A DNA stretch of 63,315 nt, the filler included, from Collodictyon triciliatum (Eukaryota): NCBI GenBank assembly GCA_043381765.1. It is 4 parts of 4 records of this genome, joined end to end, with 100 filler letters (N's around TTAATTAATTAA, not from the genome) between each part and the next. Parts side by side here need not be neighbours in the genome. Positions count along the whole stretch, not along the records: positions 25,052 to 49,977 come from JBHJMP010001063.1; 3 more parts are not named here. One strand, given 5' to 3'. The notes beneath the pieces were generated by a model. The model did not search any database. It saw only the letters and a list, made by a program, of their open reading frames with translations, and had not been told where the DNA came from. The position numbers and the translations under genes are program-made. Position 1 is the first letter of the stretch; the number at the start of each line of letters is the position of its first letter. This document shows positions 3,501 to 34,676 of this stretch, piece after piece.

Positions 3501-4084
3501 ACAAGTGTGGTTGGCACGCCATATTGGATGGCGCCCGAGCTTGTCAGGGGCCAAGAATATGGAACTAAGGCAATATGTCCCTCAAGNNNNNNNNNNNNNN
3601 NNNNNNNNNNNNNNNNNNNNNNNNNNNNNNNNNNNNNNNNNNNNNNNNNNNNNNNNNNNNNNNNNNNNNNNNNNNNNNNNNNNNNNNNNNNNNNNNNNNN
3701 NNNNNNNNNNNNNNNNNNNNNNNNNNNNNNNNNNNNNNNNNNNNNNNNNNNNNNNNNNNNNNNNNNNNNNNNNNNNNNNNNNNNNNNNNNNNNNNNNNNN
3801 NNNNNNNNNNNNNNNNNNNNNNNNNNNNNNNNNNNNNNNNNNNNNNNNNNNNNNNNNNNNNNNNNNNNNNNNNNNNNNNNNNNNNNNNNNNNNNNNNNNN
3901 NNNNNNNNNNNNNNNNNNNNNNNNNNNNNNNNNNNNNNNNNNNNNNNNNNNNNNNNNNNNNNNNNNNNNNNNNNNNNNNNNNNNNNNNNNNNNNNNNNNN
4001 NNNNNNNNNNNNNNNNNNNNNNNNNNNNNNNNNNNNNNNNNNNNNNNNNNNNNNNNNNNNNNNNNNNNNNNNNNNGATGCCTGA
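560..4084 (+). CDS. PAK/STE20 family kinase (Pro-rich N-terminus, CRIB/PBD, kinase); last exons fall in an N gap
   Basis: Spliced exons give [33 protein letters not shown], then [42 protein letters not shown] and [12 protein letters not shown]. About 12 GT-AG introns plus one likely GC donor at 3570. The 3' end is tentative because of the gap at 3587-4075. Confidence 0.92.
3587..4075. other. Scaffold gap (N run)
   Basis: N run inside the PAK gene. Similar gaps lie at 32665-33066 and 59307-59794. Confidence 0.99.
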
Positions 4085-13233: not shown

Positions 13234-16200
13234 ATGGCCGCCCTCCCCATCCGCTACCAGGAGCTCTTCACGCTCACCAATCTCGGGATCAACCCGAACG
13301 CGATCACGTTCTCGTCCGTCAGCATGGAGTCGGACAAGTACATCTGCGTCCGCGAGCAGGAGAGCGGGACGATGACGATTGTCGACGTGGCCCAGCCGCA
13401 GAGCCCCATCCGCCGCCCCATCCAGGCCGAGTCTGCCATGGTGGCCCCGGCGTCCCTGGTCATCGCCCTCAAAGGTCTGCCTCTGCTTGCTTTTCTCCTC
13501 TCATTCTCCTCTCTCTCTTTGCCTCGATCTGTTGCTTCTACATCCACATCCACGTCCACCTCCCCCTTCCCGCCCCATCCACGCGTCTGACCGAAGGCAC
13601 ACGCCGTGCACGCCGCTAACATCCACCGTTCCTCACGACGCTGCTCGCGGCCACTGCCTCCCCGTGTGGGCCCTGACGCGGATCCCCCTCCCGGCACGCG
13701 GCTCCAGCCAACCAGATGATCCAGATCTTCAACCTCGAGACAAAGACCAAGCTGAAGGCGTACCAGATGACAGACGCCATCGTCTTCTGGAGATTCATCG
13801 ACAACACCACCATCGGCCTCGTCACGGGCACGGCCGTCTACCACTGGTCCATCGACGGTCTGTCGAAGCCACCCCCCTCCTCTCGCCTGCCACCCCACGA
13901 CGCATCCCTTTCCTGTGCTCCCTTCTCCTCCGTCTCTTTGGACGTGCCAAGGAATAGTCGCCCTCCCCCACCCCAAACCAAACCGCCCTGCTAACTGCCG
14001 CTCCACCGCGCAGGCGCCTCCGATCCCGTCAAGGTCTTTGATCGCCACGCCAACCTCGCTTCGGCCCAGATCATCAACTACCGTGTCGATCCCTACGGAA
14101 AGTGGTGCCTGCTTGTTGGTATCTATCCCCAGGTCAGCCTGTTGCCCATATCGTCTATGACTCGCTCTCTCTGCAAAACTGTTTCCTTTTTCCTTTTCCT
14201 TTTTCCTTCTCCTTTTCCTTTTCCTTTTCCGTTTCCTTTTCACATGAGTGTGTATGTGCTTTTTCTTTAACCTCAAAGCACAGAATAGCTCCTGGGAAAG
14301 AAGAGCCTCTCGTTCTTGGCTCAGGCGCTGACTTTATGCTCACCGCACTAGGAAAATCGCGTCGTTGGAACCATGCAACTGTACTCGATCGAAAAGAAGG
14401 TCAGCCAGCCGATCGAAGGACACGCAGGCGCTTTTGTCTCCTTCAAGCCAGAGGGTGCCTCCGAGAATGTCACTCTCTTCACTTTTGCCTCTCGCAACCC
14501 AACCGCCTCTCGCGTAAGCCATCTCCCCCTTAGTCATTTCATTCCCCTCTGCCTTCTACTCACTTGCTCCTTCTCTTCATCTCTTGTATAACAAGCAGAG
14601 TCGGTCGGTCATGCAATGATCAATCTGTAGTCCTGTGAGTACAAATACTAACCTACGTTGATCACCATTCTCTTCTCTTCTCTTCTCTTCTCTTCTCTTC
14701 TCTTCTCTTCTCTTCTCTTCTCCAGCTCCACGTCATCGAAGTCGGCGGAAGCACGGTCGAGGGCGCTTACAAGTTCCCCAAGAAGGCCACTGACATCTAC
14801 TTCCCTCCCGAAGCCGCTGCCGACTTCCCTGTCGCACTCCAAGTCTCAGCCAAGTACGGTGTCATCTACATGGTCACCAAGCTCGGCTACTTCCACATCT
14901 ACGACCTTGAGTCTGCCACACTGATCTACATGAACCGCATCACTACGGACACCATCTTCACCACCGCCCTCCATGATGCCACCGGCGGCCTGATCGGTAT
15001 CAATCGTCGCGGACAGGTAGCGAAATCGTACAATTCAACATCTCCAATCTGTCACTTTATCTTACAACTTGAAACAGGCCCTCTTGAATTGGAAACGCTT
15101 ATCCAAAAAAGAAAAAGAAAAAGAGCTCTTCAACTATCCGCTCATTCATCAAACCTTTTCCTTTATTCGATTCAAAGTGCTCATCCACCAAAACTTACAT
15201 CATCACGCTCCCAATCAGGTCCTGTTGGTTGCTGTCGACGAGACCAATCTTGTGCCCTACATCTCCACCACTCTGAACAACACTGACTTGGCTGCGCGCA
15301 TTGCTTCCCGCAACAAGCTTCCCGGAGCTGAGGGACTCTTTGCTCGTCAATTTGAAAGCTTCTTCGCTGCTGGAGATTACAAGGAGGCCGCCCGCATCGC
15401 TTATGAAGCCCCCAACGTTTGTAAAATATGAAATAAACATTTGTCATGAAAAGTTACCACATTCTACTACGCTACTTAAAATAATATAAAATTGTTTTTT
15501 TTTTTGGCACTACTCGTAAATATCTCACGGACTCATCACATTCCAATAATTCGTAGAATGCCCTCCGCACTGCGGCTATCATCCAACGCTTCCAAAACGC
15601 TCCCGCTCAACCAGGACAACACCCACCGCTTCTTCAGTACTTCAGCACTCTCCTGGAGAAAGGTAAACTGAACAAATCCGAATCCATCGAACTGGCCAAG
15701 ATGGTTGTTCAGCAACGCAAACCCCTTCTCGAGAAATGGCTGAAGGAGGACAAGGTATATCGTCCGCGAACTTTTGTTGACACTATGATTAATATCCACT
15801 GCTCAGTATCTTTCCTTGACTTTAATCACTGACATATCTTAAACAACCTTTCAGCTTGAGTACTCCGAGGAGCTTGGAGATCTCATCAAGCCTTATGATG
15901 TCAACTTGGCCCTGTCTGTTTACCTCCGTGGTAACTCCCCACAAAAGGTCGGTTGATTATCACATTATTATGATTAATTTCGCTATCTTCCTCTTTCATG
16001 AACTTCCATTTGTAATTCTATGTAGAATTCAGATTTGATATTTTTTTCCATTTTATATAACCGCAACAAACCTCCAGGTTGTTCAATGCTTCGCCGAGAC
16101 TGGAGCATATGACAAGATTGTCCTCTACGCCCAGAAGGTTGGTTACAAGCCCGACTATGCCGCCATTCTCCAGAATGTTGTCCGCACCAGTCCCCAGGGA

Positions 16201-19200
16201 GCATTGGCCTTTGCCCTCAGCCTAGCCCAGAACCCGAGTGGCCCACTCATGGATCACACAGCTGTTGTTGATGCCTTCATGAGCTTCAAGCTTATTCAGG
16301 AGACCACCTCGTATCTTCTGGACGTCCTGAAGAACAACCGCCCCGAGGAAGGATTCCTTCAAACGCGCCTGTTGGAAATCAATCTCGTTGCTGCTCCCCA
16401 AGTCGCCGACGCCATCCTCAGTAACAGCATGTTCTCTCACTACGACCGCACTAAGATTGGTCAAATGTGCGAACGTGCAGGACTAACTCAGCGTGTATGT
16501 TTTTTTTTTTTTTAAAATTTTTTATAATTATCGTTTTTATCACGTCATACTTTTTTTTTTTGCTGTAGACATCTTACACCAAAAAGTATACTCATCTACG
16601 CGCAAATGTTCTAGGCTCTGGAGCACTATTCTGACATCCGTGACATCAAGCGTGTTATTGTCCAGACGCATAACCTGAACCCCGAGGTACGCACAAACAT
16701 GTTTCTGGCGAAGTACGGAATATGAGCACAATTCTGACTGTTTTTTTTTTTTGAAAAATAATAAACAGTTTTTGATCGGCTTCTTCGGAACCCTCTCTGT
16801 GGAGAACAGTTTGGAGTGTCTTAAGGAACTCCTTCAGGTCAACATCCGCATGAATCTCCAGGTGGTCGTCCAGATTACGACAAAGTACTCCGACCAGCTC
16901 ACACCCGAGGCTGTCATTCGCCTCTTCGAAGCCTTCAACTGCTTCGAGGGACTGTACTTTTACCTCGGCTCGATTGTCAACACCAGCCAGGATGCCGAAG
17001 TTCACTTCCGCTATATCCAAGCTGCTGCCAAGGTCGGGCAAATCAAGGAAGTCGAGCGCATCTGCCGAGAGAGCAGCGCCTTTGACCCCAAGCGTGTCAA
17101 GGACTTTTTGAAGCAGGCTCGTCTCCCTGACCAGCTCCCACTCATCATCGTCTGCGACCGCTTCGACATGGTCGATGACTTGACTGCCTATCTCTACGCG
17201 AACAACATGACAAAGTACATCGAAGTCTACGTCCAGCGTATCAACCCCCTTCGCACACCCGTTGTTGTCGGTGCCCTCCTTGACTCCGATGCCGGAGAAG
17301 ACCTAGTCCGCAACCTCACCATGTCTGTGCGCAATCTGTGCCCTGTCGAGCCGCTCGTCGCCGAGGTTGAGAAGCGTAATCGCCTGAAGCTTCTGCTCCC
17401 ATGGCTGGAGGCCCGCTCGGCCGAAGGGAACATGGAGCCAGCCACTCACAACGCTCTGGCCAAAATCTACGTCGACTCTGGGACGAACGTCGAGAACTTC
17501 CTCCAGACTAACCAGTTCTATGACAGCCGCTCCGTTGGTGCCTACTGCGAGAAGCGTGATCCCCATCTTGCTTATCTTGCATATAAGCGCGGCCGATGTG
17601 ACCCCGAGCTGATTGACGTCACCAACCGCCATGGACTCTTCAAGAATCAGGCCCGCTACCTCGTCTCCCGCCAGGACCTTGAGCTCTGGGCTACTGTCCT
17701 CAACGAGGAAAACTCCTTCCGCCGCCAAGTGATCGATCAAGTTGTGCAAACTGCCCTCCCAGAATCCAAGAGTGCTGATGAGGTGTCTGTTGCTGTCAAG
17801 GCTTTCATGGATGCCGAGCTTCCCAATGAGCTCATCGAACTTCTCGAAAAGATTGTCTTTGAAAACTCAAACTTCAGTGACAACGTCACCCTTCAAAATC
17901 TTCTGATCATCACCGCCATCCGCGCTGACCAGAGCCGTGTCATGGATTACATTAACCGCCTCGACAAGTTCGAACACACCGAAATCGCAGAGATTTGCAA
18001 ACAGAGTGAACTCTTTGAGGTTTTATTTCATATCAGTGCTTTCCCCTTAATCAATATATGATTTTCTATTAATATATGCCTTCATACAGAAAGACATCTC
18101 GAACAAATAATCTTTAAGAAACATTCCTTTCGAATAGCAATCCTATGAATGTGAAAGCAATAGATTGCTTTTTATCATCTGCGCTCAATCATTCTATACA
18201 TTACTAACACGTTTTTTTCCCTCTGTCAACTACAGGAAGCTTTCACCATCTACAAGAAGTTCAAACTCAACCTTTTGGCTGTCGATGTTCTCATCGCAAA
18301 CATCTGCAATCTGGAGCGTGCTCTTGAGTTTGTCTCTCGCTTGGATGACCCCGAATGCTGGAGCAAACTCGCCCGCGCTCAGCTGGATAATAACTTTGTC
18401 ACTGAGGCCATCAGTACGTATCATCCTCATCGGATTGAGTTATAAATATCATCCCTCAATTTTACCTCGCACATGTACTATTTTATTCGACCACCAAAAC
18501 AGCATGTTGTAACAAAAAAATGTAACAGAACGAAAAGTTTTTTAAAATTACCCATATTGCTTTTTTTTTTTTAAGCTTCTTACATGAAGGCGAATGACGC
18601 GACCGATTTCCGCGTAAGAAATCCTGCATAGCTGCATGCATAATTCCCATATTCTTGCGCAAATGGCACTGATACACCTATTACATACAGGCTGTCACTG
18701 TTGCTGCAGAGCGCGAAGAGAAGTTCCTCGACCTGGTTAAGTTCCTCCAAATGGCCCGCAAGAAGATTAAGGATGGTTACATTGAAACCGAGCTCATCTA
18801 TGCCTTTGCCAAGACCAACGAGCTTGCTGAGCTCGAAGAGTTCATCTCCGGACCCAATATCGCTGAGGTTTACTCCTCACACCATTGTTTCATTCCCTGT
18901 TATTCGCTCTTGCAATAGAGTGGCTTCGTTCATTTTATGGGATAAAGGAAGTTTGCCCAGCCAACACCATTGTCTTTCTAGACTAACAATAATTGTAATG
19001 CTTAAGATTCAAGGCGTTGGTGACCGCTGCTTCGATGAAGGGTTGTATGAAGCCGCTAAACTCCTCTACACCAATATTTCGAACCACGGCCGCCTTGCCT
19101 CAGCTCTCGTGAAGCTGAACCAGTATGCTGCTGCTGTTGAGGCTGCACGCAAGGCCAACAGTGTCAGGTTTATATCCCTACATTTTCAATTCTTAACTCT

Positions 19201-21436
19201 TTACCACGCCCTGGTGAATCTTATGTGAGGTCACTATAATCATACACATAATTGAGGCGCCAAAAATCCCACATTGTCTCAAAATACGTTTTGAGATTCC
19301 TGAATAGTTTTGCCTCGCTTTCCTAGAAACACTATCACACAATTATCTCTATGTATTCTGCCACTTATCGTTAAGATAGAAAAAAAGAAAAGAAAAGAAA
19401 AGAAAAGAAAAGAAAAGAAAAGAAAAGAAAAGAAAAGAAAAGAAAAGAAAAGCAACAAAAATGCTGTCCACTAACCAATTCTGCTCATACCTTCCAACCA
19501 TCCCGCCATAATTCGCACTGTCTTGTAGAACCTGGAAAGAAGTCAACAAGGCTTGCGTTGATGCTAAGGAATTCCGCCTTGCCCATGCTTGCGGTGTTCA
19601 CATTATTGTCCGCCCAGACGAACTGGAAGATACCATTAACTACTACGAAGAGCGAGGCCACTTCGAAGAAATCACTTCCCTCCTTGAGGCTGGTGTCCCT
19701 CTCGAGGGAGCCCACGCGGGCATCTTTACAGAGCTCGGCATCCTCTACACAAAGTACAAGCCCGTTAAGCTTATGGATCACCTGAAAGCCTACTGGGCCC
19801 GTCTTCATATCCCCAAGGTTGCCCGCGCTTGCGAAGTCGGTCATCACTGGGCCGGTAAGTCATCATATCATACCAAATCACACCATACCACACTGCGAAT
19901 CTTGCATGGACGAATGGTATCTTATTAATCGCGACTTTCAATACAAAGAACTCTGCTTCCTCTATGTCCACCATGATGAGTTTGACAACGCATCACTGTG
20001 CATGGTTGAGCACTCTGTGGATGCTTGGGAGCACATCCAGTTCAAGGAGGTGATTGCCAAGGTGTCAAACATCGACATCTACTACCGCGCCATCTCCTTC
20101 TACCTCAACGAGAACCCCACGCTCCTCAATGACCTGCTGAAAGTTCTCTCCCCCCGCGTTGACCACACCCGTGTTGTCACTATGATTCGCCGCGCTGGAC
20201 ACTTGCCCCTTATCAAGCCCTACCTCGTCAGCGCCCAGGTATGAGAAACCATCCCTTGTCTATTATCTCTATTACCGTTTCTACTAACAATATCATCATC
20301 ATCCTAATTGAACCACGCCAAGATTATCTATGTCCTGAAATAACTCATCGTTATCTTTACATATTTCTTGTTTCCATGTGAACTGTCCCAACGCATTTAT
20401 CTGTTCACTCTTGTGTGATTAACAGCCCACGAACACCACTGCGGTCAATGAAGCTCTGAACGAGCTCCTTGTCTACGACGAGGACTTTGAAGCACTCCGC
20501 TCGTCTGTGGACACATTCGACAATTACGACCACTTTGGCCTTGCCCAACAACTGGAGACTCATGAACTCCTCGAGTTCCGCCGCGTCTCTGCTTACCTGT
20601 ACAAGAAATACAAGCGCTATGCTCAGTCTGTTGCCCTCTCTAAGAAGGACAAGCTCTACAAGGATGCCATGGAGACTGCCGCCCACTCTGGAGACAAGGC
20701 TCTTGCTGAAGAGCTGCTTAAATTCTTTGTTGAGAATGGAAACAAGGTCTCTTTCTCTTTCTCTCTCTTTCTCTGAAAAGTTTTATCAAATTCCCTTCTG
20801 ATGATTACAGTATCTACTATACGATTCTCTGCGACATACCATGCCTCATATTCGCACTTGCCCACCCAGCAATCCTTCGCTGCCACTCTCTTCACATGCT
20901 ACGACCTGATTGGCGCCGACGTTGCCCTCGAGTACGCTTGGAGATACAACATGATTGACTTTATCATGCCATACCTTATCCAAACCGTCAAGGAGTACAC
21001 CTCCAAGGTAACTCACCTTGTTTCATAGAATATTAAATATACATTCTACCTCGTCACTCCACGTGAAGCCACTACGACGTTCGTTGCAGCCCACCAAACC
21101 AACCCACCAAATCACCACCAGGTGGATACTGTCGTGAAGGAGCGCGAAAAGGAGAAGGAGGCCAAGGAGAAGGAGGCCAAGCGCGCACAGGAGGAGATGG
21201 CCACAGTCGACCCCACACTGCTCTACGCCAACGCCCCGCTCGCGATTGAATACAACCCCGCTCAGCTCGGCGGAATGGGCGGCGGCTTCGGTGGAATGGG
21301 CGGTGGCGTTGTCCCTGATGCCCAGTTTGGCGGCATGGGCGGCGGCCTCGGAGTCAGCGGCTATGGCGCACCCAACGCCCAGTTTGGCGGAGCGTCGTTT
21401 GTCGGTGGATATCCCAACCAGTTTGGCGGATACTAA
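13234..21436 (+). CDS. CLTC: Clathrin heavy chain (20 exons)
   Basis: [10 protein letters not shown]...[17 protein letters not shown]...[48 protein letters not shown]. All 19 introns splice in frame at GT-AG. Stop TAA at 21434-21436. Confidence 0.98.
14669..14720. repeat. (TCTTC)n microsatellite forming the polypyrimidine tract of a clathrin intron
   Basis: Lies between a CTAAC branch motif at 14648 and the CAG acceptor at 14723. Confidence 0.95.
19379..19452. repeat. (AAAAG)n intronic microsatellite
   Basis: Visible directly. Confidence 0.95.
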
Positions 21437-22020
21437 CCAGCGCAGCCCGCTCCTCTCTCTCTCTCTCAGCCCTCTCCTCTCCAGTCTACAGCCCACCCCA
21501 CGAAAAACACTAAGCGCACCTATCCTTCAACTCCCACAGCCACACCACCACCCACACAATAAAATCCGAATCACACACACGCACAAGAACTGCTTGCCTG
21601 CTTGCTTGCACTTTTGCTTCGCTGAGAAAACCCGCTTGGCGACGAGGAGCCGAAGCAGGAGGTGCATTCTCCGAACAGCGCAATTTGAATCAGGGAATGG
21701 ACGAAGCGCCACTGACATTCCATAACCCACAATGCCGTAAAAACCTCGTTAAATGAATATTTATTAAAAAGAAAAAGAAAAAAGGGAGAGGAGCAAAGTC
21801 ATTAATTCTCTTGGTGGTCGGCTTTAACAGAGGCAGACGACCTCACTGGATGCGGAGTGATGTGATGTGATGTGATGTGTTGCGATGCGGGCATGGGGTG
21901 CATCTCCAAGTCGGCAGCGCAGCCAGGGCGAAAGAATAAAGTACGTGCGGAAGAGAATTCTGTAAGTATGGAGAGAACATAAAGCGAGTGGAGAGTAAAG
22001 CAGATGCAGAAAAAAACAAA

Positions 22021-24200
22021 TCACAGCCGCGAGATTGCGAAGCAGGGCCGGCGTGGGAGAGCATGGTGACAACCACAGCGGCATTCACGAGGAGGACAAA
22101 GAGGTGGAGGAAGAAGCCAGGGGAACGGGGATTGCGGCGAGGGCAGCCATGGACCAATGGTGGACGTGCGGGAGGTCGGCATCCGGAGGGCAGGTTCCAT
22201 GCGGACCAGTTGCACAGGAAGGGCGAGTACTGCCGTCGCACTCGAATCCTTTCGGGCATCCAAGGCACTTTTCTGTGCCTCCATTCAGGTGGTGGCTGGC
22301 TGACAGGCAGATGCAGTTGCGAATGTTCGCCGACCCTGTAATGTTGGTCACAGAGTCGCTAGGGCATTCCATGCAGGACGGCTTGCCCTATTCTGCGTTG
22401 TAGCTGGTGGAGGAGCACCTGAAACATCCCTGTCAGATTTCATAATATCCTGGTTTGCATTCACATTACTTCCTGTCGTCGATTAAATCATAACCAGCTT
22501 TACATTGTCACTCTTTTGCGTCTTGGGCGCCCGCCATCCTGGTGGTGTATTTAGGGTCGCAAGGCGAACATAACCCAGTCCCGTTGGTGGCCTTGTAGGC
22601 GCCATACTTGGAAAGGCTGCATTCATCCCCTTCTTCATACTGGGCGGGAAGGCATATGCACTCATGCCCATCCAAAACGTACCCGCGCTTGCAAATGCAT
22701 TCTGAAATATCCTTCAACCCTTCAAACCTTGTCGTAAATCTTGTCGGGCAGCTCGTACATAACTTACTTCTGTCGGTGCTGTGCGTCTCTTTGGTACATG
22801 AAATACATGATGACTCTCCAAAATGAACCTTCGCCCCATTATACATCCCAGACGCGCAATCTTTACAACTCACTCTTTTCTCACCACCAAAAGTCCCCCT
22901 TGGACACAGGAAGCGTGCTGATTCCCTGAACCCGCCTTCATTTGATATATACGTGACTCGGGGACATATTGCACAGTTTGTTTGTCCTTCTCTTCCATCG
23001 TAATAGCCTCGTTGGCACGCACGACACATGGATACCTTAATCTCTGACAAAAAATACCCCACTGGATAAGTCTTACAACTCCTTTCACTGTCAGAAGCAA
23101 CCAAAGGACTAAAGGTTCCAGCCGCACATTCCTCACAAAAAAATAGCTTTATCGTGCCTAGAAAAGTTCCGGGCGCACACAGAGAAGAATACGCCAACCT
23201 CGTATCATTTGAATAATACCCAAAGCGACATTCATAACATTGATATTGACCTCGAGCTCCATTTTAGCTTCCTTGTGTACACTTAATTCATAAAGGTGCA
23301 TCGAATGACCTATAGTTTGGATTTAAGCTTCCAACAGGGCACGAGTCACAGACAGTTATTCCATATGTGTCACTAAAAGTCCCAGGATTGCATTCAAAAC
23401 ATGGCATGAGCCAGTTCGCAGACCGTGCCATCATGTTATATGTGCCCGGCACACACTCTCTACAAGACGATTGACCATAAGAGGGGTTGAAAGTCCCTGG
23501 CCCACATGATTGACAATCTTCCGCACTACTGGACCCAATCTTATTATTAAATGTTCCAGGTGGAGATTTTATATATTTACGTTGGTCGTTGACATTTGAA
23601 TAAGCCCCACTAGGGGATATGACACATGTATTGTACAAGCCATCATAATAATGTTCCTGATCACAAAACAGTCAAATAGATATAGCGTTATCAGTAGAAC
23701 CAGATATAATTTTCTCCCATTCGAGGCCATTCTTACAGTGATTGTATTCAATAAATTCTCCCAAAGGTTTCATATAACTTGTCCGGTGTTGATACCATTC
23801 ACTGAAATACCTTTATTTGCAACTTCGGCAACAATATATACCCCATTCGAGAAAACAATTAAACTTGTAATGGGAGAATATTTTTTTTTAATCGTTCTCA
23901 CCCGAAATCAAATTCCCATCTTCCATATAATTACGCTTCTCATAAAACCTTCCACCAGAAATAATCTTTGAATTATCAGGAGTCACAGCAACAGCTGAAA
24001 CAAGGTCTATGTGACATAAAAGAGTCGCTAATATTACTCCACCCAACACCGACCAAACTTTATCAATGAAATCACTGCCCAGGCTACAGGCCAAACCGCA
24101 GGATGCAATTCCTGATTACCGACTACTTCTCCGCCACCCGGTCACCAAGTAGCGCCCATGCAAATGATGGCCAGTGAATCAAAACCAACATCTTCACCAT
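22021..24200 (-). pseudogene. Decayed WD40 + Cys-rich (CxxCxxGx[FY], GCC2/GCC3 / ephrin-receptor-like repeat) surface protein
   Basis: WD40 remnants (GSDFIDKVWSV...HIDLVSAVAVTPDNSKIISG; EKIISGSTDNAISI*) are followed by many CQSCGPGTF / CRECVPGTY repeats. There are seven in-frame stops, many lost Cys codons, and frameshifts in the WD40 part and at the 3' end. Confidence 0.82.
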
Positions 24201-24497: not shown

Positions 24498-24849
24498 TCA
24501 AGCCAGGAGAGCATTGTCTCGCAGTTTGGAGAAGAGCAGGGCTTGATTCTCAGGAGACAGAGAGATGATTTGGTTCACGAGCTTATCCACGATAAATCTA
24601 TGTTACATTCAATCGTCAGTGGGCGTATATATCACAAATAAGTGTCTGTACTTGCTAAGAAAGGAGACATGGCTATAGAATCATCTGAAGCGTTGAGACA
24701 TGTAAGCGGGTTGCAGCGCAAAGAGCCTCCTCATACCGTTTGCTGGCAATAAAAGACGAGAAGTAAACATAGGTGAACAGTCCCATGAGGAGTTGGCAAT
24801 CCATTCGATCTGTGATTCCGCCGTGGCCAGGAATACTTTCTCCGAAATC
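24498..24849 (-). CDS. CDS1: Phosphatidate cytidylyltransferase (CDP-diacylglycerol synthase), last two exons only
   Basis: [19 protein letters not shown] is the family signature. It splices to [33 protein letters not shown]. The 5' part is cut off by the spacer at 24952. Confidence 0.93.
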
Positions 24850-24853
24850 CTGG

Positions 24854-24951
24854 CAAAACAAAACAAAACAAAACAAAACAAAACAAAACAAAACAAAACA
24901 AAACAAAACAAAACAAAACAAAACAAAACAAAACAAAACAAAACAAAACAA
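24854..24951. repeat. (AAAAC)n intronic microsatellite at a contig end
   Basis: Visible directly. Confidence 0.95.
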
Positions 24952-25051
24952 NNNNNNNNNNNNNNNNNNNNNNNNNNNNNNNNNNNNNNNNNNNNTTAAT
25001 TAATTAANNNNNNNNNNNNNNNNNNNNNNNNNNNNNNNNNNNNNNNNNNNN
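24952..25051. other. Artificial contig spacer N44-TTAATTAATTAA-N44
   Basis: Exactly 100 nt with an all-frame stop linker. Genes are truncated on both sides. Confidence 0.95.
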
Positions 25052-28000
25052 GACGAGGCCACGCTTTTGGAAGAGTTGCAAAAAATCACCGGGGTCGCCA
25101 ACATTGCTGCTTTACGAAAAAGCACGTCACTTTATATTTCTTCCAAAAATCTGGTGTATGTTCCTCTCGGTGTATTCTTGTTGGATCTGTTGAAAACTTT
25201 GTCCGTTTTTTCCAACAAGCTTTCGTCGCTGCCACCAGAAATATCGCGCTTGACCTGTCTCGTAGATTTTCAAGTTTCTTTCAACAAGCTGTCGACACTA
25301 CCACAGGAAATATTTCATTTGACTGGTCTCTTAGAAATTGATGCTTCTTATAATGAGCTTTCATCTCTGCCCTCAGAGATATCACACTTAAATTATCTCA
25401 TGGCACTTAATATCTCTTCAAACAAGCTTTCGTCGCTGCCACCAGAAATATCGTGCTTTACTCGTATCACACGCCTGGAAATGTGCAACAATCAGGTTTT
25501 TATTTAAATTAAACTTTACTTATACTCATACTTATGAATCACTAAAGAAAAGGATAAACTCTTTATTTAACATATAGATCGAAGAGCTTCCACCACAAAC
25601 TACAGCTCTTGTAAGTCTGAGGGAACTCTCCATCAAAGGTGGCTACAATACACAAACTATAAAAAGAGCACCTCGTGGAATTACAAATCTTCCATTATGG
25701 GATAACACAACCCACAAGGACCATTCATGCATACTCACTCTGGAGCTTTACGAAGTTCCGGTATATCTCCATTATGCTTCTAATGATATGTAAATGAATA
25801 TAAACGTCTTTTCGCCCAAAGCCATTGAAAATGATACATTAGGAGGATGATATGATGATGATGGAATGGATTGCAGATGCGAAGGAGATACGCTTCCAAT
25901 CGCTCAATTTTTACGGCATGGGCATCTCCATTCTACCCAAAAACTTATCACAGTTGACGAACATCACATATCTCAACATCAGCTGCAATAAGGTATAGCC
26001 ATCTATCTTTGAATCGAATAAAGAAAAAAAAAGGTATAACCATTTATAAAGCCCCTATTCCGAGAACAGTAATTTGATTGAAAAGAAAAGAGAGCATAAC
26101 AATTCACCAAGTATCCTTGGCTTCGTATATGAGTTCATAGTCATCCCTCTTGTGCCAATTCATGATTTTTTCGTATGACTGTACAGTTTTCCTCGCTACC
26201 CGACCTACGAGCAATGAAGAATCTGAGAAAGTTGGATGTGAGACAAAACGCATTCCCACCTCATATTCAACAATTTTTAGACTCTATTGACCTGGTCAAT
26301 AGCGAGGAAATCAGCATAACAGGCCGTGAAATTAAACAAGTACCAGAAGAGATGCTTCTCTTGCCCATCAAACCAAAGCGACTCAACATTTCCGAAAATT
26401 ATGTTCGTACTACATTTTGCATTTCTTTTACAAAAGAAGAGTTCTATCCTTGTCCTATCTAATGGATAATTATCGACACCCATTCTAATTGATGTTTAAA
26501 AAAACGTTAGATATCGTCGCTTCCTACAAACGTGTCGCACCTATCTAGCATCACATATCTCAACATCAGCCGCAATAAGGTATTCAACGACTCGAAGGAA
26601 TCCCATATTTGGAACAAAGTTAACTCTTTCAATACTCAGAATTTTAGATAACATACATGTACGTTATTATAGTTCAACCTATTTCCCGCATCTATATGCA
26701 CATTGACTCTAATCGAGTCTCTCAATATTTCAAACAACCAGGTTTCTTTAGAACTTTTTTAAGTACATTGAACTGGAAATATTGTGTGCCATATATTGTT
26801 CCTCTTATTTGATTGTAGTCTAACATGTTATTTAAACCCAGATTTCGCAGATTCCGGATGCCATCGCAAATCTTGTCAATATCCACAGATTCGATATATC
26901 TAACAACCAGGTCTTTTTTTTATGTTTTAATATGTTTTTGACCTTCTCTTAAAAATATAATAAGAGTTTGCTCACCTGTTCGATGCATAGATTCAAAAAT
27001 TGCCCAGAATTATTGGAGCTTTAAAGAGCGTGCGAAGTGGGCTGATTGTGCAAGGAAATCCCATCAAGAATGTACAAGGAAATGTCATCCGAAATGGATC
27101 TGAAGCTGTATTTGATTTCCTAGCAAACTCTATGAGTGGGCTCGTACGATGGACTCAAGGGAGGCTCCTTTTACTTGGTGAAGGAGAAACCGGGAAAACC
27201 ACCCTCATCAAATCAATAACTCAAAAATTGGTCTCTTTCAAGAACACCACAGACCAGAAGCAAGAGCGAACCGATGGTATAGCGCATGTCGATATTGATG
27301 AATTAATCATGGATACACCCTCAAAAACTAAGATGGCCATACGAATCTGGGACTTTGGGGGACAGGAAGAGTTCCAAGTAACACACCCGTTCTTTTTGTC
27401 ATCAGGTGCTCTCGTTTTAATCCTTTACAGACTTGACAGAAACAAAAATGAGAACAACCTCGGACGCTGGGTCAAAATGCTTGACGACTTTGCGCCTGGT
27501 TCAAAAATTATAATTGCTGGGACTCACCAGGACAATCAGAATCCGACTTGCAAAAAAGAGATGCACAAAGAAATCGAACGAATAAAAAAGGATAACGCAC
27601 AGAAATTGGATGAAAAGGCTCAACACATCTTTATTCACACAAACTTGAGGGTTAGCAACAAAAGCGGTGAAAAAATCTCTGATTTGAAGGATGAAATATA
27701 CAAAGGAATGATGAGACTAGACAATATGAACAAGGACGTTCCAAAAACATATATTGGACTGAAAGACTATCTGGATTCAAAAAGCCAAATTTTAAAGTAT
27801 GAAAGAATCCAAGACACATACAGTTTTGCCGAGAAGCAGTTGGGAATGGACAGAAATGGATGTGAAAGTGCTCTCAAATTTCTTCACGACCTTGGCTCCA
27901 TCGTTTGGTATTCATCACTTGAAAGTGTCAAGGATATTATTTTTTTGGACCCGCTATTTCTCATCAACATTTTCCGCTGTGTTTTCAGCTTCAAAGGAAT

Positions 28001-31000
28001 CGGGAAGGGTACAAGCGGCATCATTTTGTTGAGTAAGCTAAAAGACCAAATCAAACAAGAACTGAAATCCGAATTAGATGAACAAGTGTTCAATACAATT
28101 TTCCGAATTTTTGACCATTTTGGCCTTGGTATTCAATTTAACAGAGAATGCATCGCCTTTCCCTCGCTAATGGAAGATTGTAGCAACCTAAGGGCGTTAT
28201 GGAATGAAAAAGCAGAGTCGAACTGTATTGCTGAAACCTCTGTAGAAATAATGACCAATGGTGAGGTCCAGCTCTCTGATAAAAGCAACGTCATCATACA
28301 AGCGCTTCGTTTAACAAAAGCGGGACAAACTGGAGTTCAGTATGAAGACCAATTTTTCAGAGATATAGCGCTCATACACTTAAATGCTTCGTACAAAACA
28401 GGAACGGATGAAATTCAATTGGTTCCAGGAAATGGATTGATTATCTTGTACCAAATCCACCAAAGAAATATAAAAGTCAATATTAGGAGATATGAAAATG
28501 AGGTTGATGAAAGTGATACAATCGTCAGGATTTTTGACATTCTTTGCACCTTTATCAAACAAATATCATCAATTCGACCAAATTTTATTGAAGAGTATCG
28601 TTTTGAATGCCCTGAATGCCAGCGTCAAGGTTCAGATGGTTATATGCGAACTTCATTCAAGATAGAAAACTCAGAATTGAAAATATGTACAAAGAGCCAT
28701 CAACTGGAAGCGAGTGCAATAACGCAAGGGCGTGTCTATTTGGAGCAAGGTTTGTAAATAAGTGCATTAAAACTTGGTGTCACCAGAATGATAATGTACA
28801 AATTTGTATATGTATGTTATGTGCTACCATTGAAATATAACACATTGAATGTTTATTTTAGGAATTTCAAAGATATTTGCCTCTGTCATAAAAGGGAAAA
28901 GGAAAAGGAGGCCACAATCCGCTAAATCGATCTTTGAGCTGGATTCAATAAACAAAGAGCTGAAAGGTCAATGGATTGATGAAAAGATAGAGCTTTTGGA
29001 GTATCTCGCAAAGGGTTCATTTGGGCGTGTTTATACAACATCATTTCAAAAGGAAAAAAAAGCTGTGGTGAAAATCCAAACAATCAAAGAAATGGATACG
29101 CAGACCGTCAGCCAGGTGATTCAATCGCTTATTTATGAAAGCAAGTATCTGCATGAATGTAAGGAGTGTGAAAATATTGTCAAGTTGTTTGGTGTGTATC
29201 GCAAAGATGACGATTTCTTTATGGTTATGGAGAATGCAGGCTTTTCTCTGAAATCTATGTTGGAGAAGAAAGGTATTAAACCAACGTTATCTCAAGTAAT
29301 ATCTTACACGGAGCAACTGTGCAAGGGTCTCATCTTTATGCATTCTAAAAACCTCTACCATGAAGATTTGAAGGCTGACAACGTTATGATAATGGACGAA
29401 ACCATAAAAATTGTAGATTTTGGAATAATAAGCCATCGAAGCGTTGAGGAAGTTGGTTCAAACTTACCTACAAAGTATGGTGATAATAAAGGCGGAACTA
29501 CCAACTGGCAAGCACCAGAAATCCATGATATTGTTTCTACACCTCATTACGAAGACAACCCTGAAATTTATGGCGAATATGGGGTCAATGTGGGGCATCG
29601 AGGAGAACCAAGCAACGTGTATGCTTTGGGAATGCTCGTCTGGTACATGTTTTCTGGCATCGAGCCTTTTATGAATGAAAAAGAAACACAAGGATTTGTC
29701 ATCAGAGGCTTACGTCCTGAAATACCGAATGAAGCCACTCCGAAGGAGTTGAATCATCTTATCAAAGCATGTTGGAGGCAAAACTATAAGCTTCGACCAT
29801 CTCTGAGTCAAGTTTGTAAGTATATGGATGAATTGAAATCAAATGGGTCGAAGCTTTCTCGATTTGTGATGAACCATTTGCTTCCTATTAAATACGCTCC
29901 GTTGGCTGATATGTACCAGGGTGAATTTGTGGAGTGGCTTCGAGAGCATGGCTTTTCGAATTTGAGCGATAAGATTTCAAAGCAAACGACCTGGAAGAGA
30001 TTTGTCGAAATTCAAGACATGCTGATTGAAAGTAAGATGATTGAGACCTATCATATAACCCCGAATGACATAATTGCATTTTTGGGATTATCGAAAGAGG
30101 ACGATGCTGGCAGCAGTTCCAAAGTTTCGAAGAAAAAGGTTGAGGAATTATTTTATAACCCATTGGTAACCCATTTGCAGAAAAAGAAAGACGGATTGTC
30201 AAAAAGATTACTTGAAAAAGTGAAAGCCTTGCACCTTGATGGGAATATAATATCCAAGCTTGACAAACCAGATATCCGCGCGAACCACTCGGTTTCTGAA
30301 CAGGAACTTTCGTTTGTATCCCGATTCATAGAAAACCAGACGCAGCCAAATGATTCTGAACCTCCCAAACATGTATTAAGCACCAACATCCTTCAAGAAT
30401 TGGAAGAAAGTCAATTTATGAATTTGCGATACATCCCTTACAATCATGGAATCCAACACGCAACCACGTTGTGGATGGGTGATATGAAGCTCCCTCAGAT
30501 TCCGAATTCCCTCAGTCACTTTGTAGAATTGATGAGACTCTACCTCCATTCGAACGAAGTAGTTTTGATTCAATTATGTTTCAAAAGCTGGCGATTTTAT
30601 TCAGTTGTTAATTGCAGACTAACTCATGACCTGTTTACAGCTTACATCTTTCCCGAAGCCATGCCTTGCTCTCACAAAGTTAGTCTATCTGGACTTGTCA
30701 AAAAATAAGGTACATCACTCTTCTCTCTCCATTGTTTTCTATTTACCAATTTGTTTTAATATACATGTTCATCCTTATACGATGATGATAGCATTATAAT
30801 TTGCATTTTGTATTATTAGGCTTTAATTTTCATCAAACTACCACGTATTTTTCACCCATGCTCATTCATTTAACATCACTACATGTCCAAATTATGTCTG
30901 ATGGGCCTCATTCCATTCTGTACCACCGAAAACCAGCTATCGTCGCTGCCTCCAGAAATATCGAGCTTATCAATTCTCATGCACTTGGACATTCGAGATA

Positions 31001-31272
31001 ACCCGGTTTGTTTGGATTATAGATCAAAATTATTGGAGATTAGTCAGCGGTATTGACTGATTAGCGTTTCATCATTTCTGTAGATTAAAGAGCTTTCTGC
31101 CCAAATCACCTCTCTTGCTGCCCTCAGTTGTTTGCGTCTCCAGGGTGAAAGTGGACAATCAACCATAAAGGGGGCGCCCCGAGGTATCACCAACCTCCCA
31201 TGTTGCAAGAATCCGAGCGATCCAGATCACGAGTTCATTAGCAAACTGGAGTTCTACGACCACGTAACATGA
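25052..31272 (+). CDS. Roco family protein: LRR-Roc GTPase-COR-kinase-SAM-like x2-LRR (5' end truncated)
   Basis: LRR exons 25052-26910. Roc motifs GEGETGKTT, TDGI, WDFGGQ, GTHQD and VSNK. COR-like LKFLHDLGSIVWY...IFLDP. An intron at about 28750-28861 joins the kinase (LAKGSFGRVY, VVK, HEDLKADN, DFG, WQAPE). C-terminal LRR exons lie at 30641-30709, 30937-31005 and 31084-31272. Confidence 0.92.
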
Positions 31273-32016: not shown

Positions 32017-34676
32017 ATGGAGGAACCCAAGTGCACAGACGTCTTTGTGAGAATCCGCACAACCGACGGCCTCGAAACCCAAGTCGCCTGCAAGCCGCAC
32101 ACAGCGTAATGCCGCCAAAGCACACGAGCGTCTGCCCAGAAAAGCTCCACACACTCCTCTATTCCCCACTGCCCAAACTACATGTTCCCTCACCCGCGCT
32201 CACCGGCTTTGCTTTACTCTAGCCTGGGCCAAGTTCTTCAGACTTGGAGCCCAACGACAGGCACTTCCGGTCGCTCGTACAATGTCCTGCTGCGCGGCAA
32301 ACGTCTGTCGCTCGAGACAAAGGTCGCGGACCTTCTGCTGCGTTCGCACGGTATTCACAAACATCTGTCCACACATCCAACAAAGCCCGACTGACTCCCG
32401 ATGCTGACTGTGCCCGCGCTGCTCTATCTCGCTTGCAGAGTTTCTCACCGCGTGCCCCGTTCTTGCAAAGAAGCCCGTCTCCCCGGAATCCTTCCCACGC
32501 ATCACGCAGACGCTCATCAACGAGCAGACGCGCAATCTCGTCACCGAGCAGGAGGCTGAAAGCCCCAACGCCCTGGACCTCCTGCGCATCATAGCCGAGC
32601 TCGAAGAGAAGCAGCTTCTCCTCCTGCAGGCCAAGGAGCAAATCCGCCGCTTGTATGAAGCATCNNNNNNNNNNNNNNNNNNNNNNNNNNNNNNNNNNNN
32701 NNNNNNNNNNNNNNNNNNNNNNNNNNNNNNNNNNNNNNNNNNNNNNNNNNNNNNNNNNNNNNNNNNNNNNNNNNNNNNNNNNNNNNNNNNNNNNNNNNNN
32801 NNNNNNNNNNNNNNNNNNNNNNNNNNNNNNNNNNNNNNNNNNNNNNNNNNNNNNNNNNNNNNNNNNNNNNNNNNNNNNNNNNNNNNNNNNNNNNNNNNNN
32901 NNNNNNNNNNNNNNNNNNNNNNNNNNNNNNNNNNNNNNNNNNNNNNNNNNNNNNNNNNNNNNNNNNNNNNNNNNNNNNNNNNNNNNNNNNNNNNNNNNNN
33001 NNNNNNNNNNNNNNNNNNNNNNNNNNNNNNNNNNNNNNNNNNNNNNNNNNNNNNNNNNNNNNNNNNAATGCAAATGTGCCATACATAATATTTCTAAATG
33101 TAATCTATGAATTTACCATTGTCATGTAACCCGAGACAAACAAAGTTGTTTTTTCTCCCTTCTTTTCTTGAAGGCACTGGTTTGTGTCGCTTTTTTCTTC
33201 AATTTTGTCCTTATCAATATAAACATTTCCATTTGTAGGCTGAGTATACCAAAGGCTATAGAGCGGCTTCTCTCCTTTGGTGATGATGAATTATTCTCCA
33301 TTCCTTTCACAGAGGATGAATTGAGCCGACTGCGCGAATGCTTCTTGCGAATTGGCCCCATTCCATTTGTGAGTGTGAAAAATGGGCAATATATGAAAAA
33401 AAAAACACATTTTTTTTAGTCAAGAGATATCAGCAACCACAATCATCGGGGACGTAGCCTTGAAATTTTGTTTGCTTTTTATGCAACTCTTTTTTTTTTC
33501 TTTTTTTTTCCTAGCATGTTCATGTCTTGTCAAAGCTTGGGTATCCTGAGGTTGACTGTGTGGATGCACTGAGGACGACCCTTGGAGATTTCCACGCCGC
33601 CAGAAGAATATTACAACAGCGGGTATCTTCTGTTCATGTGATTTAGCAAGTGGCCTGTTTAAAGGGGGTTATGTCTCCTCGTGTGCTTACATATCAATGA
33701 ATAAATGTGTTTATTTCCTACAGTTTCTCTTTCGGATAATAACCAACATTTTTTTCATGAAAAAAACAATCACATGAAGACATTTTCATTATTATCACTA
33801 TCACAATTGACATCTTGTAATTCATTTTAAACTGAGCTATATACGAAGTTGGTGATGATTTGTTTTTTTTTGTTTTTTTTTTTGGAGGCCACATAATACA
33901 CCCCTGTGCAAACTGTAATTAATCTACTGTTCAGGGGGCTGAGTCCTATTCACACACCTCGAACTCTGAGGGGGTTTCAACAGCAACACAAACAACCAAC
34001 GATGATGGAGAGGAAGAGGAAGCTTCCAATCGAATCCCAAGTGCTCTTTCTATAGCCCAGGGTTTATTCTTGCGGCCAGATATTCAGCAAAGATTATGCG
34101 AAGATAGTGAATTCAGGGGTATGCTCTTTGTTCTCTTTCCTTTCTTTCTTTTTTTATTTTGTGCCAGTGTCTTTGTTTGTTGGATTGTTAATATATATCG
34201 TCTCTGATTGTTGCGCCGATGTCAGGAGAAGAATACAATCCAAGAGATAGCATATTTTTCTTTTCCTTTTCTATTATGGCCAGATTTCTCTCTTTGCATT
34301 GTTTGTGCCCCTGGGGTATACGCACAATTCTATTATCTAATATGCGTTGCGAATTCGGTTTATTCAAACAGGGGCACTGGAATCAATTGTTCTCGACCCG
34401 TCCAGATTACCCGAGCACATCCAACGCGTTTGTTTTCTATTATTATGATTATTATATTTTTTAAAAAAACTATTATTATTATATCATTATCATTAACAAG
34501 CTTGCGAGAGGGATATGCACAGAAGAAATAATCTCGAATGGAGCTGGAATGACCAGTTGGCTCCTGGTAACCACCTCCGACTCAATTTTCTTTCATCTTC
34601 TCAGAACCCGGCTGTTCGTGAGATTGTGCAGGAAATAATAGAAGCGTCAACAAGCCAGACAGAGCATCTTCCTTAG
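32017..34676 (+). CDS. UBL-UBA-UBA-STI1 protein, UBAC1/KPC2-like (internal N gap)
   Basis: Ubiquitin-like N-terminus (VFVRIRTTDG...VLLRGKRLSLETKVADL), UBA end SIPKAIERLL, UBA VLSKLGYPEVDCVDALRTTLGDFHAARRIL, and STI1-like LESIVLDPSRLPEHIQR|NPAVREIVQEI. Confidence 0.7.

What the first reader, a model, noticed from the sequence alone, without database searches (positions are those of the whole stretch)
26511..31005. Roco LRRs encoded as exact 69-nt, phase-0, one-repeat-per-exon cassettes: candidate shuffled receptor system
Seen: exons 26511-26579, 26673-26741, 26842-26910, 30641-30709 and 30937-31005 are each exactly 69 nt (23 aa, one LRR). All are phase 0-0 and break at the same position, after the N-x of LxxLxLxxNx. 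The neighbouring larger LRR exons also end at this register. Established: brown-algal (Ectocarpus) ROCO genes have single-LRR symmetric exons proposed to be shuffled as immune receptors. Inference: any cassette here can be skipped, duplicated or swapped without a frameshift, giving a combinatorial recognition surface on a Roc-COR-kinase switch in a protist lineage.
Basis: partly seen in the sequence, partly recalled or inferred. Interest (0 to 1): 0.8.

Follow-up and report, generated by a model that had tools for sequence, protein, structure and literature searches.

The report
Single-repeat LRR exons in a protist ROCO kinase
A large signalling gene (LRR-GTPase-kinase) of a diphylleid protist really does encode several of its leucine-rich repeats as identical-length 69-base exons that could be added or dropped without breaking the reading frame, but nothing here shows that the cell actually shuffles them.

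Summary
All five intervals are exactly 69 nt, phase 0-0, with AG/GT borders, and each encodes one 23-aa LRR ending after N-x. A spliced cDNA contig joins 26579>26673, 26741>26842 and 26910>26991. Exons 30641-30709 and 30937-31005 have no RNA cover.

The gene is a 12-exon ROCO of at least 1660 aa, spanning 25052-31272 (+). Its layout is LRR-cap-LRR-Roc-COR-kinase-orphan linker-LRR-cap. The host is a diphylleid (CRuMs): the clathrin exon is 90% identical to Diphylleia rotans. A second gene on the minus strand (50228-51634) has four more 69-nt LRR exons.

The shuffled-receptor reading is not supported by this window:
- The nine cassettes are old: pairwise nucleotide identity is at most 57%, median 42%.
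- Introns share no similarity.
- No relic or inverted LRRs lie in the introns.
- The one cDNA contig includes all three exons it spans.

Exon size, phase and border differ from the brown-algal ROCO exons (72 nt, phase 2) and the Tetrahymena LRR exons (90 nt, phase 2). I read this as an independently arisen variant of a known architecture. A genome-wide census and long-read cDNA are needed.

The parts
25052..25495 (+). ROCO exon 1 (5' end lost in N run 25008-51): N-terminal segment plus five 23-aa LRRs in ONE exon; ends ..NNQ|GT at the common register
   Evidence: ORF and Pfam LRR_8 1e-11. Collinear with the N-terminus of Diphylleia P0100/P0040/P0041. Internal 69-nt periodicity at 57-70% nt identity.
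25578..25760 (+). ROCO exon 2: one LRR plus a conserved 'cap' motif (..APRGITNLP.W..LELYE..)
   Evidence: 47% identical to the terminal exon. Matches P0100 residues 104-166 and 683-745. No Pfam family. The junction 25760>25843 is inferred only.
25843..25992 (+). ROCO exon 3: linker plus one LRR. Alternative reading: a separate gene starting at ATG 25852
   Evidence: 25760|25843 is the only frame-compatible GT..AG pair (82-nt, phase-0 intron), read. No cDNA joint was seen here.
26187..26402 (+). ROCO exon 4: irregular three-LRR module, 216 nt, ends ..ENY|GT
   Evidence: Matches P0100 residues 239-309, E 5e-6. Borders.
26511..26579 (+). 69-nt single-LRR exon (ROCO exon 5)
   Evidence: Donor joint seen in the X1 cDNA contig. 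74-80% nt identical to the LRR at 25924-25992.
26673..26741 (+). 69-nt single-LRR exon (ROCO exon 6)
   Evidence: Both borders seen in the X1 cDNA contig.
26842..26910 (+). 69-nt single-LRR exon (ROCO exon 7)
   Evidence: Both borders seen in the X1 cDNA contig.
26991..28749 (+). ROCO exon 8: last N-side LRR, Roc GTPase and COR; ends in phase 1
   Evidence: Pfam Roc 73.5 bits, COR-A 44.4 bits. Best PDB match is human LRRK2 Roc-COR, 1.3e-20. P-loop, DFGGQ and THQD present. The acceptor and the 28749>28862 joint are seen in cDNA.
28862..30558 (+). ROCO exon 9: protein kinase, 223-aa orphan linker (29821-30489) and first C-side LRR; ends ..SNE|GT
   Evidence: Pkinase 1.1e-36. HEDLKADN, DFG and APE present. 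The linker has 0 hits in 1.84 billion representatives.
30641..30709 (+). 69-nt single-LRR exon (ROCO exon 10)
   Evidence: Frame logic only; no RNA cover.
30937..31005 (+). 69-nt single-LRR exon (ROCO exon 11)
   Evidence: 70% nt identical to LRR unit 25427-25495. No RNA cover at 95% or more.
31084..31272 (+). ROCO exon 12: LRR, cap motif and stop
   Evidence: Matches the cap regions of Diphylleia P0038, P0039 and P0100.
51311..51634 (-). Gene 2 exon 1: ATG, N-terminal segment and 3 LRRs; ends ..NNP|GT
   Evidence: LRR_8 5.6e-8. Collinear with P0100 residues 4-104.
50937..51221 (-). Gene 2 exon 2: LRR, cap motif and linker; ends ..SLNL|GT
50748..50816 (-). Gene 2: 69-nt single-LRR exon
   Evidence: AG|..|GT, open, LRR score 6.
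50540..50608 (-). Gene 2: 69-nt single-LRR exon
50402..50470 (-). Gene 2: 69-nt single-LRR exon (degenerate; no Asn)
   Evidence: score 5.
50228..50296 (-). Gene 2: 69-nt single-LRR exon. The following intron runs into a (TACA)n tract and the N run 49978-50077

Best explanation
This is a constitutively spliced, multi-domain ROCO kinase of a diphylleid protist. Its order is LRR block - cap - LRR block - Roc GTPase - COR - Ser/Thr kinase - orphan helical linker - LRR block - cap. By analogy with LRRK2 and bacterial Roco proteins, it most likely works as a cytosolic GTP-regulated kinase whose LRR solenoids bind partners and/or fold back on the catalytic core (inferred).

The 69-nt exons record how the solenoids were built. 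An LRR unit carrying a phase-0 intron directly after the N-x of LxxLxLxxNx was multiplied long ago, or introns entered the same AAG/CAG| site repeatedly. The copies have since diverged. Some arrays have lost the introns or never had them.

The symmetric cassettes make gain, loss or skipping of a repeat frame-neutral. That is a latent evolutionary property. It is not shown to be a working diversity generator.
For: Domains and catalytic motifs are intact.

Nine of the 11 introns lie at one LRR register in phase 0. The two exceptions are the cap/linker intron (phase 0) and the COR/kinase intron (phase 1).

The same register and the same 69-nt length occur in a second gene 19 kb away. The feature therefore belongs to the family, not to this locus alone.

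The cassettes are old. Identity is at most 57% and the median is 42%, against an all-unit median of 39%. There is no intron homology. There are 0 intronic or antisense LRR relics at PSSM score 8 or more, while real units score 15.5-34.

The X1 cDNA contig has exons 5-6-7-8 in order, none skipped. It shows 1 mismatch in 179 nt of LRR exons, against 6 in 322 nt of the Roc part.

The cap and the irregular three-LRR module are conserved in the same order in Diphylleia rotans ROCO transcripts.

Diphylleia isoform clusters differ only by N-terminal truncation or 1-2 substitutions, not by 23-aa cassettes. Three multi-member clusters were checked.
Against: Only one window and one cDNA contig were available. 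Contigs drop rare isoforms, so exon skipping is not excluded.

Two LRR units have moved between contexts. The LRR at 25924-25992 is about 74-80% identical to exon 26511-26579. The unit 25427-25495 is about 70% identical to exon 30937-31005. Repeat exchange has therefore happened.

Many X1 and X2 contigs lie at 90-95% likeness on short parts of 25052-25475 and run on into other LRR-like sequence. This hints at a larger expressed LRR family.

Four distinct ROCO paralogues turned up in D. rotans alone.

The function of the protein is inferred from domain content only.
Confidence: 0.62

Rival explanations
1. First reader's reading. The 69-nt cassettes are a working diversification device. Exon skipping, duplication and exchange between ROCO and LRR-only loci generate a repertoire of recognition surfaces on a Roc-COR-kinase switch, giving an immune-like or prey/self-recognition system.
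For: All cassettes are symmetric phase 0-0. Nine such exons sit in two genes within one 63-kb window. Gene 2 could be an LRR 'reservoir' locus of the kind described in Ectocarpus (PMC3341825 section 15). LRR units are shared at 70-80% identity between different exon contexts. Paralogous LRR contigs appear in the transcriptomes. At least 4 ROCO paralogues exist in D. rotans. Brown-algal ROCOs with the analogous architecture show alternative splicing (PMC11378527 passages).
Against: Cassette pairs are at most 57% identical, and the introns are unrelated. No relic or inverted LRR exons were found. The one spliced contig shows constitutive inclusion and the same order as the genome. The LRR exons are no more variable than Roc between the window and X1 (1 in 179 against 6 in 322). 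The most recent repeat growth is intra-exonic.
Confidence: 0.15
2. Parallel intron gain. The LRR arrays were originally intron-less, as exon 1 still is. Introns were inserted independently into the same protosplice-like site created by the N-(K/Q) codons (AAG| or CAG|). The equal exon length then follows from the 23-aa repeat period and does not come from cassette duplication.
For: The unsplit LRR borders in exon 1 carry the same AAG|CT or GAG|CT context as the split ones. The intron sequences share nothing. Three in-exon units are also flanked by AG and GT by chance of this codon context.
Against: Fourteen introns in two genes at exactly one nucleotide position out of 69 is a great deal for independent insertion. 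Several split borders end in TAT, GAA, CCG, AAC, TAC or AGT, which are not protosplice-like. Clonal spread of exon-intron units is the documented route in Tetrahymena and brown algae (PMC6564038, PMC3341825).
Confidence: 0.18
3. Two genes instead of one. The stretch 25052-25793 is a separate small LRR-cap gene ending at TAA 25791, and the ROCO gene starts at ATG 25852.
For: An in-frame stop lies at 25791-93 and four ATG codons start at 25852. Homology to Diphylleia runs to 25772, past the proposed donor at 25760. No cDNA joint was seen at 25760>25843. Gene 2 shows that LRR-cap units can begin a gene.
Against: Only 58 nt separate the stop from the ATG. A canonical 82-nt phase-0 GT..AG intron joins the frames. 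Diphylleia ROCOs have LRR-cap-linker-LRR-Roc-COR in one protein, collinear with 25121-28202.
Confidence: 0.25

Closest known systems
Brown-algal LRR-ROCO genes (Ectocarpus and kelps), 'type I LRR exons'
   Same: They are ROCO GTPases whose LRRs are each encoded by one symmetric, equal-length exon. Related LRR-only loci lie nearby. They have been proposed as shuffled receptors (PMC3341825 section 15 read; PMC11378527 passages read).
   Different: There the exons are 72 nt (24 aa) and phase 2, and they run GxxPxx..LxLxxNxLx. Here they are 69 nt (23 aa) and phase 0, with the border two residues earlier (after N-x). Brown-algal proteins are LRR-Roc-COR without a kinase. This protein adds a kinase, a cap motif and a C-terminal LRR block. 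Near-identical, recombined, intronic and inverted LRR exons are seen there. None were found here.
Tetrahymena LRR genes with arrays of exactly 90-bp exons
   Same: These are tandem arrays of equal-length LRR exons with a single intron phase. They are read as clonal expansion and exon shuffling (PMC6564038 passages read).
   Different: The exons there are 90 bp and phase 2. There are thousands of genes, and the young cohorts still show nucleotide conservation. Here only 9 old cassettes were seen, in phase 0.
Human LRRK2, and the Roco proteins of Chlorobium tepidum and Methanosarcina barkeri
   Same: The order LRR-Roc-COR(-kinase) is shared. The best solved matches of exon 8 are LRRK2 (1.3e-20), 4wnr and 3dpu/6hlu.
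   Different: No ARM, ANK or WD40 domain was found by Pfam in the parts scanned. The kinase is closest to TTK and RIPK1, and no LRRK2 kinase appears among the 49 PDB sequences at E 1e-15 or better. The C-terminal LRR-cap block replaces the WD40.
Diphylleia rotans ROCO transcripts (EukProt; P0038-P0041, P0100)
   Same: These are the closest relatives of Roc-COR (31-35% identity, E 4e-62 to 3e-55). They share the N-terminal segment, the cap motif, the irregular three-LRR module and the LRR-cap-LRR-Roc-COR order.
   Different: After COR they carry DUF4062/AAA-type NTPase or PH domains in place of a kinase (precomputed Pfam lists). They are transcripts only, so their exon structure is unknown.

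Membership tests
ROCO proteins | Roc (Ras of complex) GTPase domain | tested here: met
   PF08477 at 73.5 bits (cut-off 27), residues 58-181 of exon 8. GEGETGKT, DFGGQ and THQD present (the motif definitions are recalled).
ROCO proteins | COR domain directly C-terminal to Roc | tested here: met
   PF16095 COR-A at 44.4 bits (cut-off 35.3), residues 251-377 of the same exon. The LRRK2 match spans Roc-COR, residues 1318-1675.
LRRK-type ROCO kinases | Protein kinase domain after COR with its catalytic residues | tested here: met
   Pkinase at 127 bits. AVVK, HEDLKADN, DFG and APE present.
LRRK-type ROCO kinases | Kinase specifically related to LRRK/TKL kinases | tested here: inconclusive
   The best PDB matches are TTK (2e-18) and RIPK1 (1e-16). 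LRRK2 is not among the 49 sequences at E 1e-15 or better. No kinase tree was built.
Brown-algal type I LRR-exon ROCOs | 72-nt exon, phase 2, border after NxLx | tested here: not met
   The exons are 69 nt, phase 0, with the border after N-x. This was compared with PMC3341825 and PMC11378527.
Brown-algal type I LRR-exon ROCOs | Signs of ongoing shuffling: near-identical exons, and relic or inverted LRR exons in introns | tested here: not met
   Cassette identity is at most 57%. There were 0 non-exon PSSM hits on either strand of both loci. The one possible relic, at 30907-30936, matches 18 of 30 positions, while another intron tail reaches 17 of 30.
Brown-algal type I LRR-exon ROCOs | Alternative splicing of LRR exons | tested here: inconclusive
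   One contig includes all three exons. Contigs cannot show rare isoforms.
Brown-algal type I LRR-exon ROCOs | Large clustered family with pseudogenes | not testable with these tools
   No genome is held. Only two cassette-bearing genes are visible in the window.
Tetrahymena 90-bp LRR exon arrays | Exactly 90-bp exons separated by phase-2 introns | tested here: not met
   The exons are 69 nt and phase 0. Exon lengths other than 69 nt (60-78 nt in steps of 3) gave 0-1 LRR units; 90 nt was not scanned.

The most novel reading that the evidence does not exclude
Diphylleids (CRuMs) independently evolved a genome-wide family of 69-nt, phase-0 single-LRR cassettes, shared between ROCO kinases and LRR-cap genes. 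These cassettes are exchanged and alternatively spliced to diversify a recognition surface. That would be a third, convergent invention of exon-modular LRR receptors, after brown algae and Tetrahymena, and the second on a ROCO scaffold.
Probability: 0.15. Interest if true: 0.7.

Novelty: new variant of a known kind. Interest (0 to 1): 0.4.

Why it matters
One-LRR-per-exon arrays are the substrate proposed for rapid receptor diversification in brown algae and ciliates. Here the same design appears with a different exon size, phase and border. It sits in a ROCO kinase of a deep-branching and barely studied supergroup. This suggests the design arises repeatedly, and twice on the ROCO scaffold. 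It gives a concrete, cheap test for the new diphylleid genomes: an exon-length census at 69 nt, plus long-read cDNA. As it stands, the locus looks like an old, stably spliced gene. The immune-like reading remains a hypothesis.

Tried and rejected
- Whole-genome census: no genome is held for this window, so only the window could be scanned.
- RNA evidence: no RNA holder is listed. X1 and X2 are 'RNA?' contig runs holding small shares of the sampled words (0.11 and 0.07), and X3 laid nothing. There is no cover of 30564-30775. No joints were seen for 25495>25578, 25760>25843, 25992>26187, 26402>26511, 30558>30641, 30709>30937 or 31005>31084.
- Metagenome scan with a Roc-COR alignment: 479 relatives were found and 80 kept, all at 21-30% identity. 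None is close, so they were not examined further.
- Diphylleia isoforms as a proxy for cassette skipping: they differ only by N-terminal truncations or 1-2 substitutions. This evidence is weak, because the clusters are built at 90% identity.
- LRR relic at the 3' end of intron 30710-30936: it matches 18 of 30 positions and is the only one of 919 intronic 30-mers at that level. However, another intron tail reaches 17 of 30 against the best of 13 LRR tails, and the frame holds a stop. I judged it not significant.
- Orphan linker 29821-30489: Pfam gave only a sub-threshold Ndc10_N hit, scanned as part of 29821-30558. There were 0 hits in 1.84 billion representatives. The single-sequence AlphaFold model had pLDDT 43.8, so it was not fold-searched.
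- Cap exon: no Pfam family. The Atlas gave only generic plant LRR clusters, with recognition 2160 below the 2300 mark.
- Alternative donors for the exon 2/3 junction were worked through by hand. Only 25760|25843 keeps the frame.
- Literature: a search for '69 bp' + leucine-rich repeat + 'phase 0' + exon found 0 papers. ROCO + CRuMs found 3 papers, of which 2 were listed, each with one occurrence of each term. Supplementary tables of the brown-algal papers were not seen.

Full report
**1. The observation**

Each is preceded by AG, followed by GT, open, and translates to a 23-residue LRR of the form (L/I/F)xx(L/I/F)Pxx..LxxLxLxxNx.

In a 12-exon model of the gene the reading frame is open for 1660 codons. 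Every exon has AG/GT borders, and the five cassettes begin and end in phase 0. The four larger exons that end inside an LRR (ends at 25495, 25992, 26402, 30558) stop at the same register, directly after N-x. In all, 9 of the 11 introns lie at one position of the repeat, in phase 0. The exceptions are the cap/linker intron (phase 0) and the COR/kinase intron (phase 1).

A window-wide scan for AG|open 69 nt with an LRR signature|GT gave 12 units. Exon lengths of 60-78 nt other than 69 gave 0-1 each, and 30 Markov shuffles gave 0-2 each. The pattern is therefore real and far from chance.

**2. Transcript evidence**

No run is on record as RNA. Two small coded runs, X1 and X2, hold parts of the stretch.

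X1 contig record 1 (524 nt, depth 11.1) lies on 26537-26577, 26671-26737, 26838-26908 and 26989-27310, with GT..AG skipped parts. With the tool's stated cut shifts, these are exactly the joints 26579>26673, 26741>26842 and 26910>26991. The contig's 5' loose end looks like a template-switch oligo; that recognition is recalled, not tested.

Contigs of X1 and X2 also join 28749>28862. So 4 of the 11 introns are confirmed. Both borders are confirmed for exons 26673-26741 and 26842-26910, and only the donor for 26511-26579.

Exons 30641-30709 and 30937-31005 have no cover. They rest on frame logic: read-through of either neighbouring intron meets a stop. They also rest on homology of the terminal exon.

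**3. What the gene is**

Exon 8 carries Roc (73.5 bits) and COR-A (44.4 bits). Exon 9 carries a protein kinase (127 bits). The GTPase and kinase motifs are intact. The best solved relatives of Roc-COR are human LRRK2 (1.3e-20) and the M. barkeri and C. tepidum Roco proteins. The kinase is nearest to TTK and RIPK1, not to LRRK2.

The closest proteins anywhere are four Diphylleia rotans transcripts (31-35% identity, E 4e-62 to 3e-55); the next best hit is at 7e-24.

These Diphylleia proteins show that the LRR stretch upstream (25052-25760) most likely belongs to the same gene:
- Their N-terminal segment, LRRs, a conserved 'cap' motif (..APRG(I/L)xxLPCW..LxL(Y/F)..), a linker, an irregular three-LRR module and Roc-COR are collinear with 25121-28202.
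- A canonical 82-nt phase-0 intron (25761-25842) is the only frame-keeping join.

This junction is inferred, not seen in cDNA. The start codon is hidden in the N run 25008-25051.

After the kinase come a 223-aa linker and a second LRR-cap block. The linker has no detectable relative: 0 hits at E 0.001 or better in 1.84 billion representatives.

**4. The organism**

A clathrin heavy-chain exon in the same window (16679-18061) is 90% identical to D. rotans and 71% identical to Rigifila ramosa. The host is therefore a diphylleid (CRuMs).

**5. A second locus**

On the minus strand, 19 kb away, a gene starts at ATG 51634. It has an exon with an N-terminal segment plus 3 LRRs, and then an LRR+cap+linker exon. 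Four consecutive 69-nt phase-0 LRR exons follow, at 50816-50748, 50608-50540, 50470-50402 and 50296-50228. The gene then runs into a (TACA)n tract and an N run.

Its first 240 residues are collinear with the N-terminus of Diphylleia P0100. No Roc-COR lies beyond the gap in this window, so whether it is a ROCO or an LRR-only gene is open. The 69-nt cassette is thus a family trait: nine cassettes in two genes.

**6. Is it a shuffled receptor system?**

Tests of the hallmarks described for Ectocarpus (PMC3341825 section 15) gave negative or neutral results here.
- (a) Among the nine cassettes, the 36 pairwise nucleotide identities have a maximum of 57% and a median of 42%. The median over all 24 LRR units is 39%.
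- (b) Self-comparison of both loci finds no intron-intron similarity.
- (c) A PSSM built from the 24 units finds 18 and 8 hits at score 8 or more in the two loci, all inside annotated exons on the coding strand. It finds 0 in introns or on the opposite strand. The null is 0.04 per shuffled intron set, and real units score 15.5-34.
- (d) The only spliced contig includes all three cassettes in genomic order. It differs from the window at 1 of 179 LRR-exon bases against 6 of 322 Roc bases.
- (e) The most similar LRRs (57-70%, with one 52-nt stretch at 88%) lie within the intron-less exon 1. The latest repeat growth was therefore intra-exonic.

On the other side:
- Two units have clearly been copied between contexts. 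The LRR at 25924-25992 and exon 26511-26579 share 80% identity over 64 nt, including 4 nt of intron. The unit 25427-25495 and exon 30937-31005 share 70%.
- Many 90-95% contig pieces on 25052-25475 run on into other LRR-like sequence.
- D. rotans has at least four ROCO paralogues.

The reading is therefore not excluded, but this window gives no positive evidence for it.

**7. Comparison with known systems**

Brown-algal ROCO LRR exons are 72 nt (24 aa). They are phase 2 according to PMC11378527, they run GxxPxx...LxLxxNxLx, and the proteins lack a kinase. Tetrahymena LRR exons are exactly 90 bp with more than 96% phase-2 introns (PMC6564038). Here the exons are 69 nt (23 aa) and phase 0, with the border two residues earlier. 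The intron position is not homologous, so the architecture arose independently.

I found no paper on ROCO or LRR exon structure in CRuMs. A search for ROCO + CRuMs found 3 papers; 2 were listed, each with a single occurrence of each term. A search for '69 bp' + LRR + 'phase 0' + exon found 0 papers. Supplementary tables of the brown-algal papers could not be seen.

**8. Verdict**

Active shuffling or combinatorial splicing is not shown.

The most likely reading (0.62) is an old, constitutively spliced ROCO kinase whose LRR introns are a fossil of how the solenoid was built. Novelty: a new variant of a known kind. Interest: 0.4.

Noticed in passing
window 50228-51634 (-): A second gene with the same front end as the ROCO (N-terminal segment, 3 LRRs, cap, linker), followed by four consecutive 69-nt phase-0 LRR exons. 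It is cut off by a (TACA)n tract and the N run 49978-50077.
   Followed up: partly
window 25647-25760, 31153-31269 (+) and about 51152-51040 (-): A conserved LRR-terminating 'cap' motif (..(A/H)(P/H)(R/G)GI(T/S)xLP.W.. then L(E/D)(L/F)Y(E/D)) occurs three times in the window and repeatedly in Diphylleia rotans ROCOs. It has no Pfam family.
   Followed up: partly
window 29821-30489 (+): A 223-aa region between the kinase and the C-terminal LRRs has no relative in 1.84 billion representative proteins. It is predicted all-helical, but at pLDDT 44.
   Followed up: yes
window 24952-25051, 49978-50077, 58998-59097: The same odd pattern (44 N, 12 bases, 44 N) occurs three times, each time next to a microsatellite or low-complexity tract. 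Longer N runs lie at 3587-4075, 32665-33066 and 59307-59794. It is unclear whether these are true gaps or masking.
   Followed up: no
window about 12800-21500 (+): A clathrin heavy-chain gene in several exons (Clathrin 4e-83, Clathrin_propel 9e-11). It is 90% identical to D. rotans and sits in a block of much higher G+C (43-52%) than the ROCO gene (38%).
   Followed up: partly
window 21800-23700 (-): A Cys-rich repeat protein (Ephrin_rec_like 5e-21). Next to it, at about 24700-24900 (-), is an ORF ending in a GHGG..DR.DCQ-like motif that I recall from CDP-diacylglycerol synthases; this was not tested.
   Followed up: no
window 10517-10690 (-): A weak tblastn match (33% over 78 aa, E 8e-4) to the kinase part of a Rhizamoeba ROCO-like protein. 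There may be another kinase gene here.
   Followed up: no
window 25052-25475 (+): X1 and X2 contigs at 90-95% likeness lie on 40-50-nt pieces of the exon-1 LRRs and continue as different LRR-like sequence. One joint replaces 171 nt by 33 other letters. These are probably expressed paralogues.
   Followed up: no
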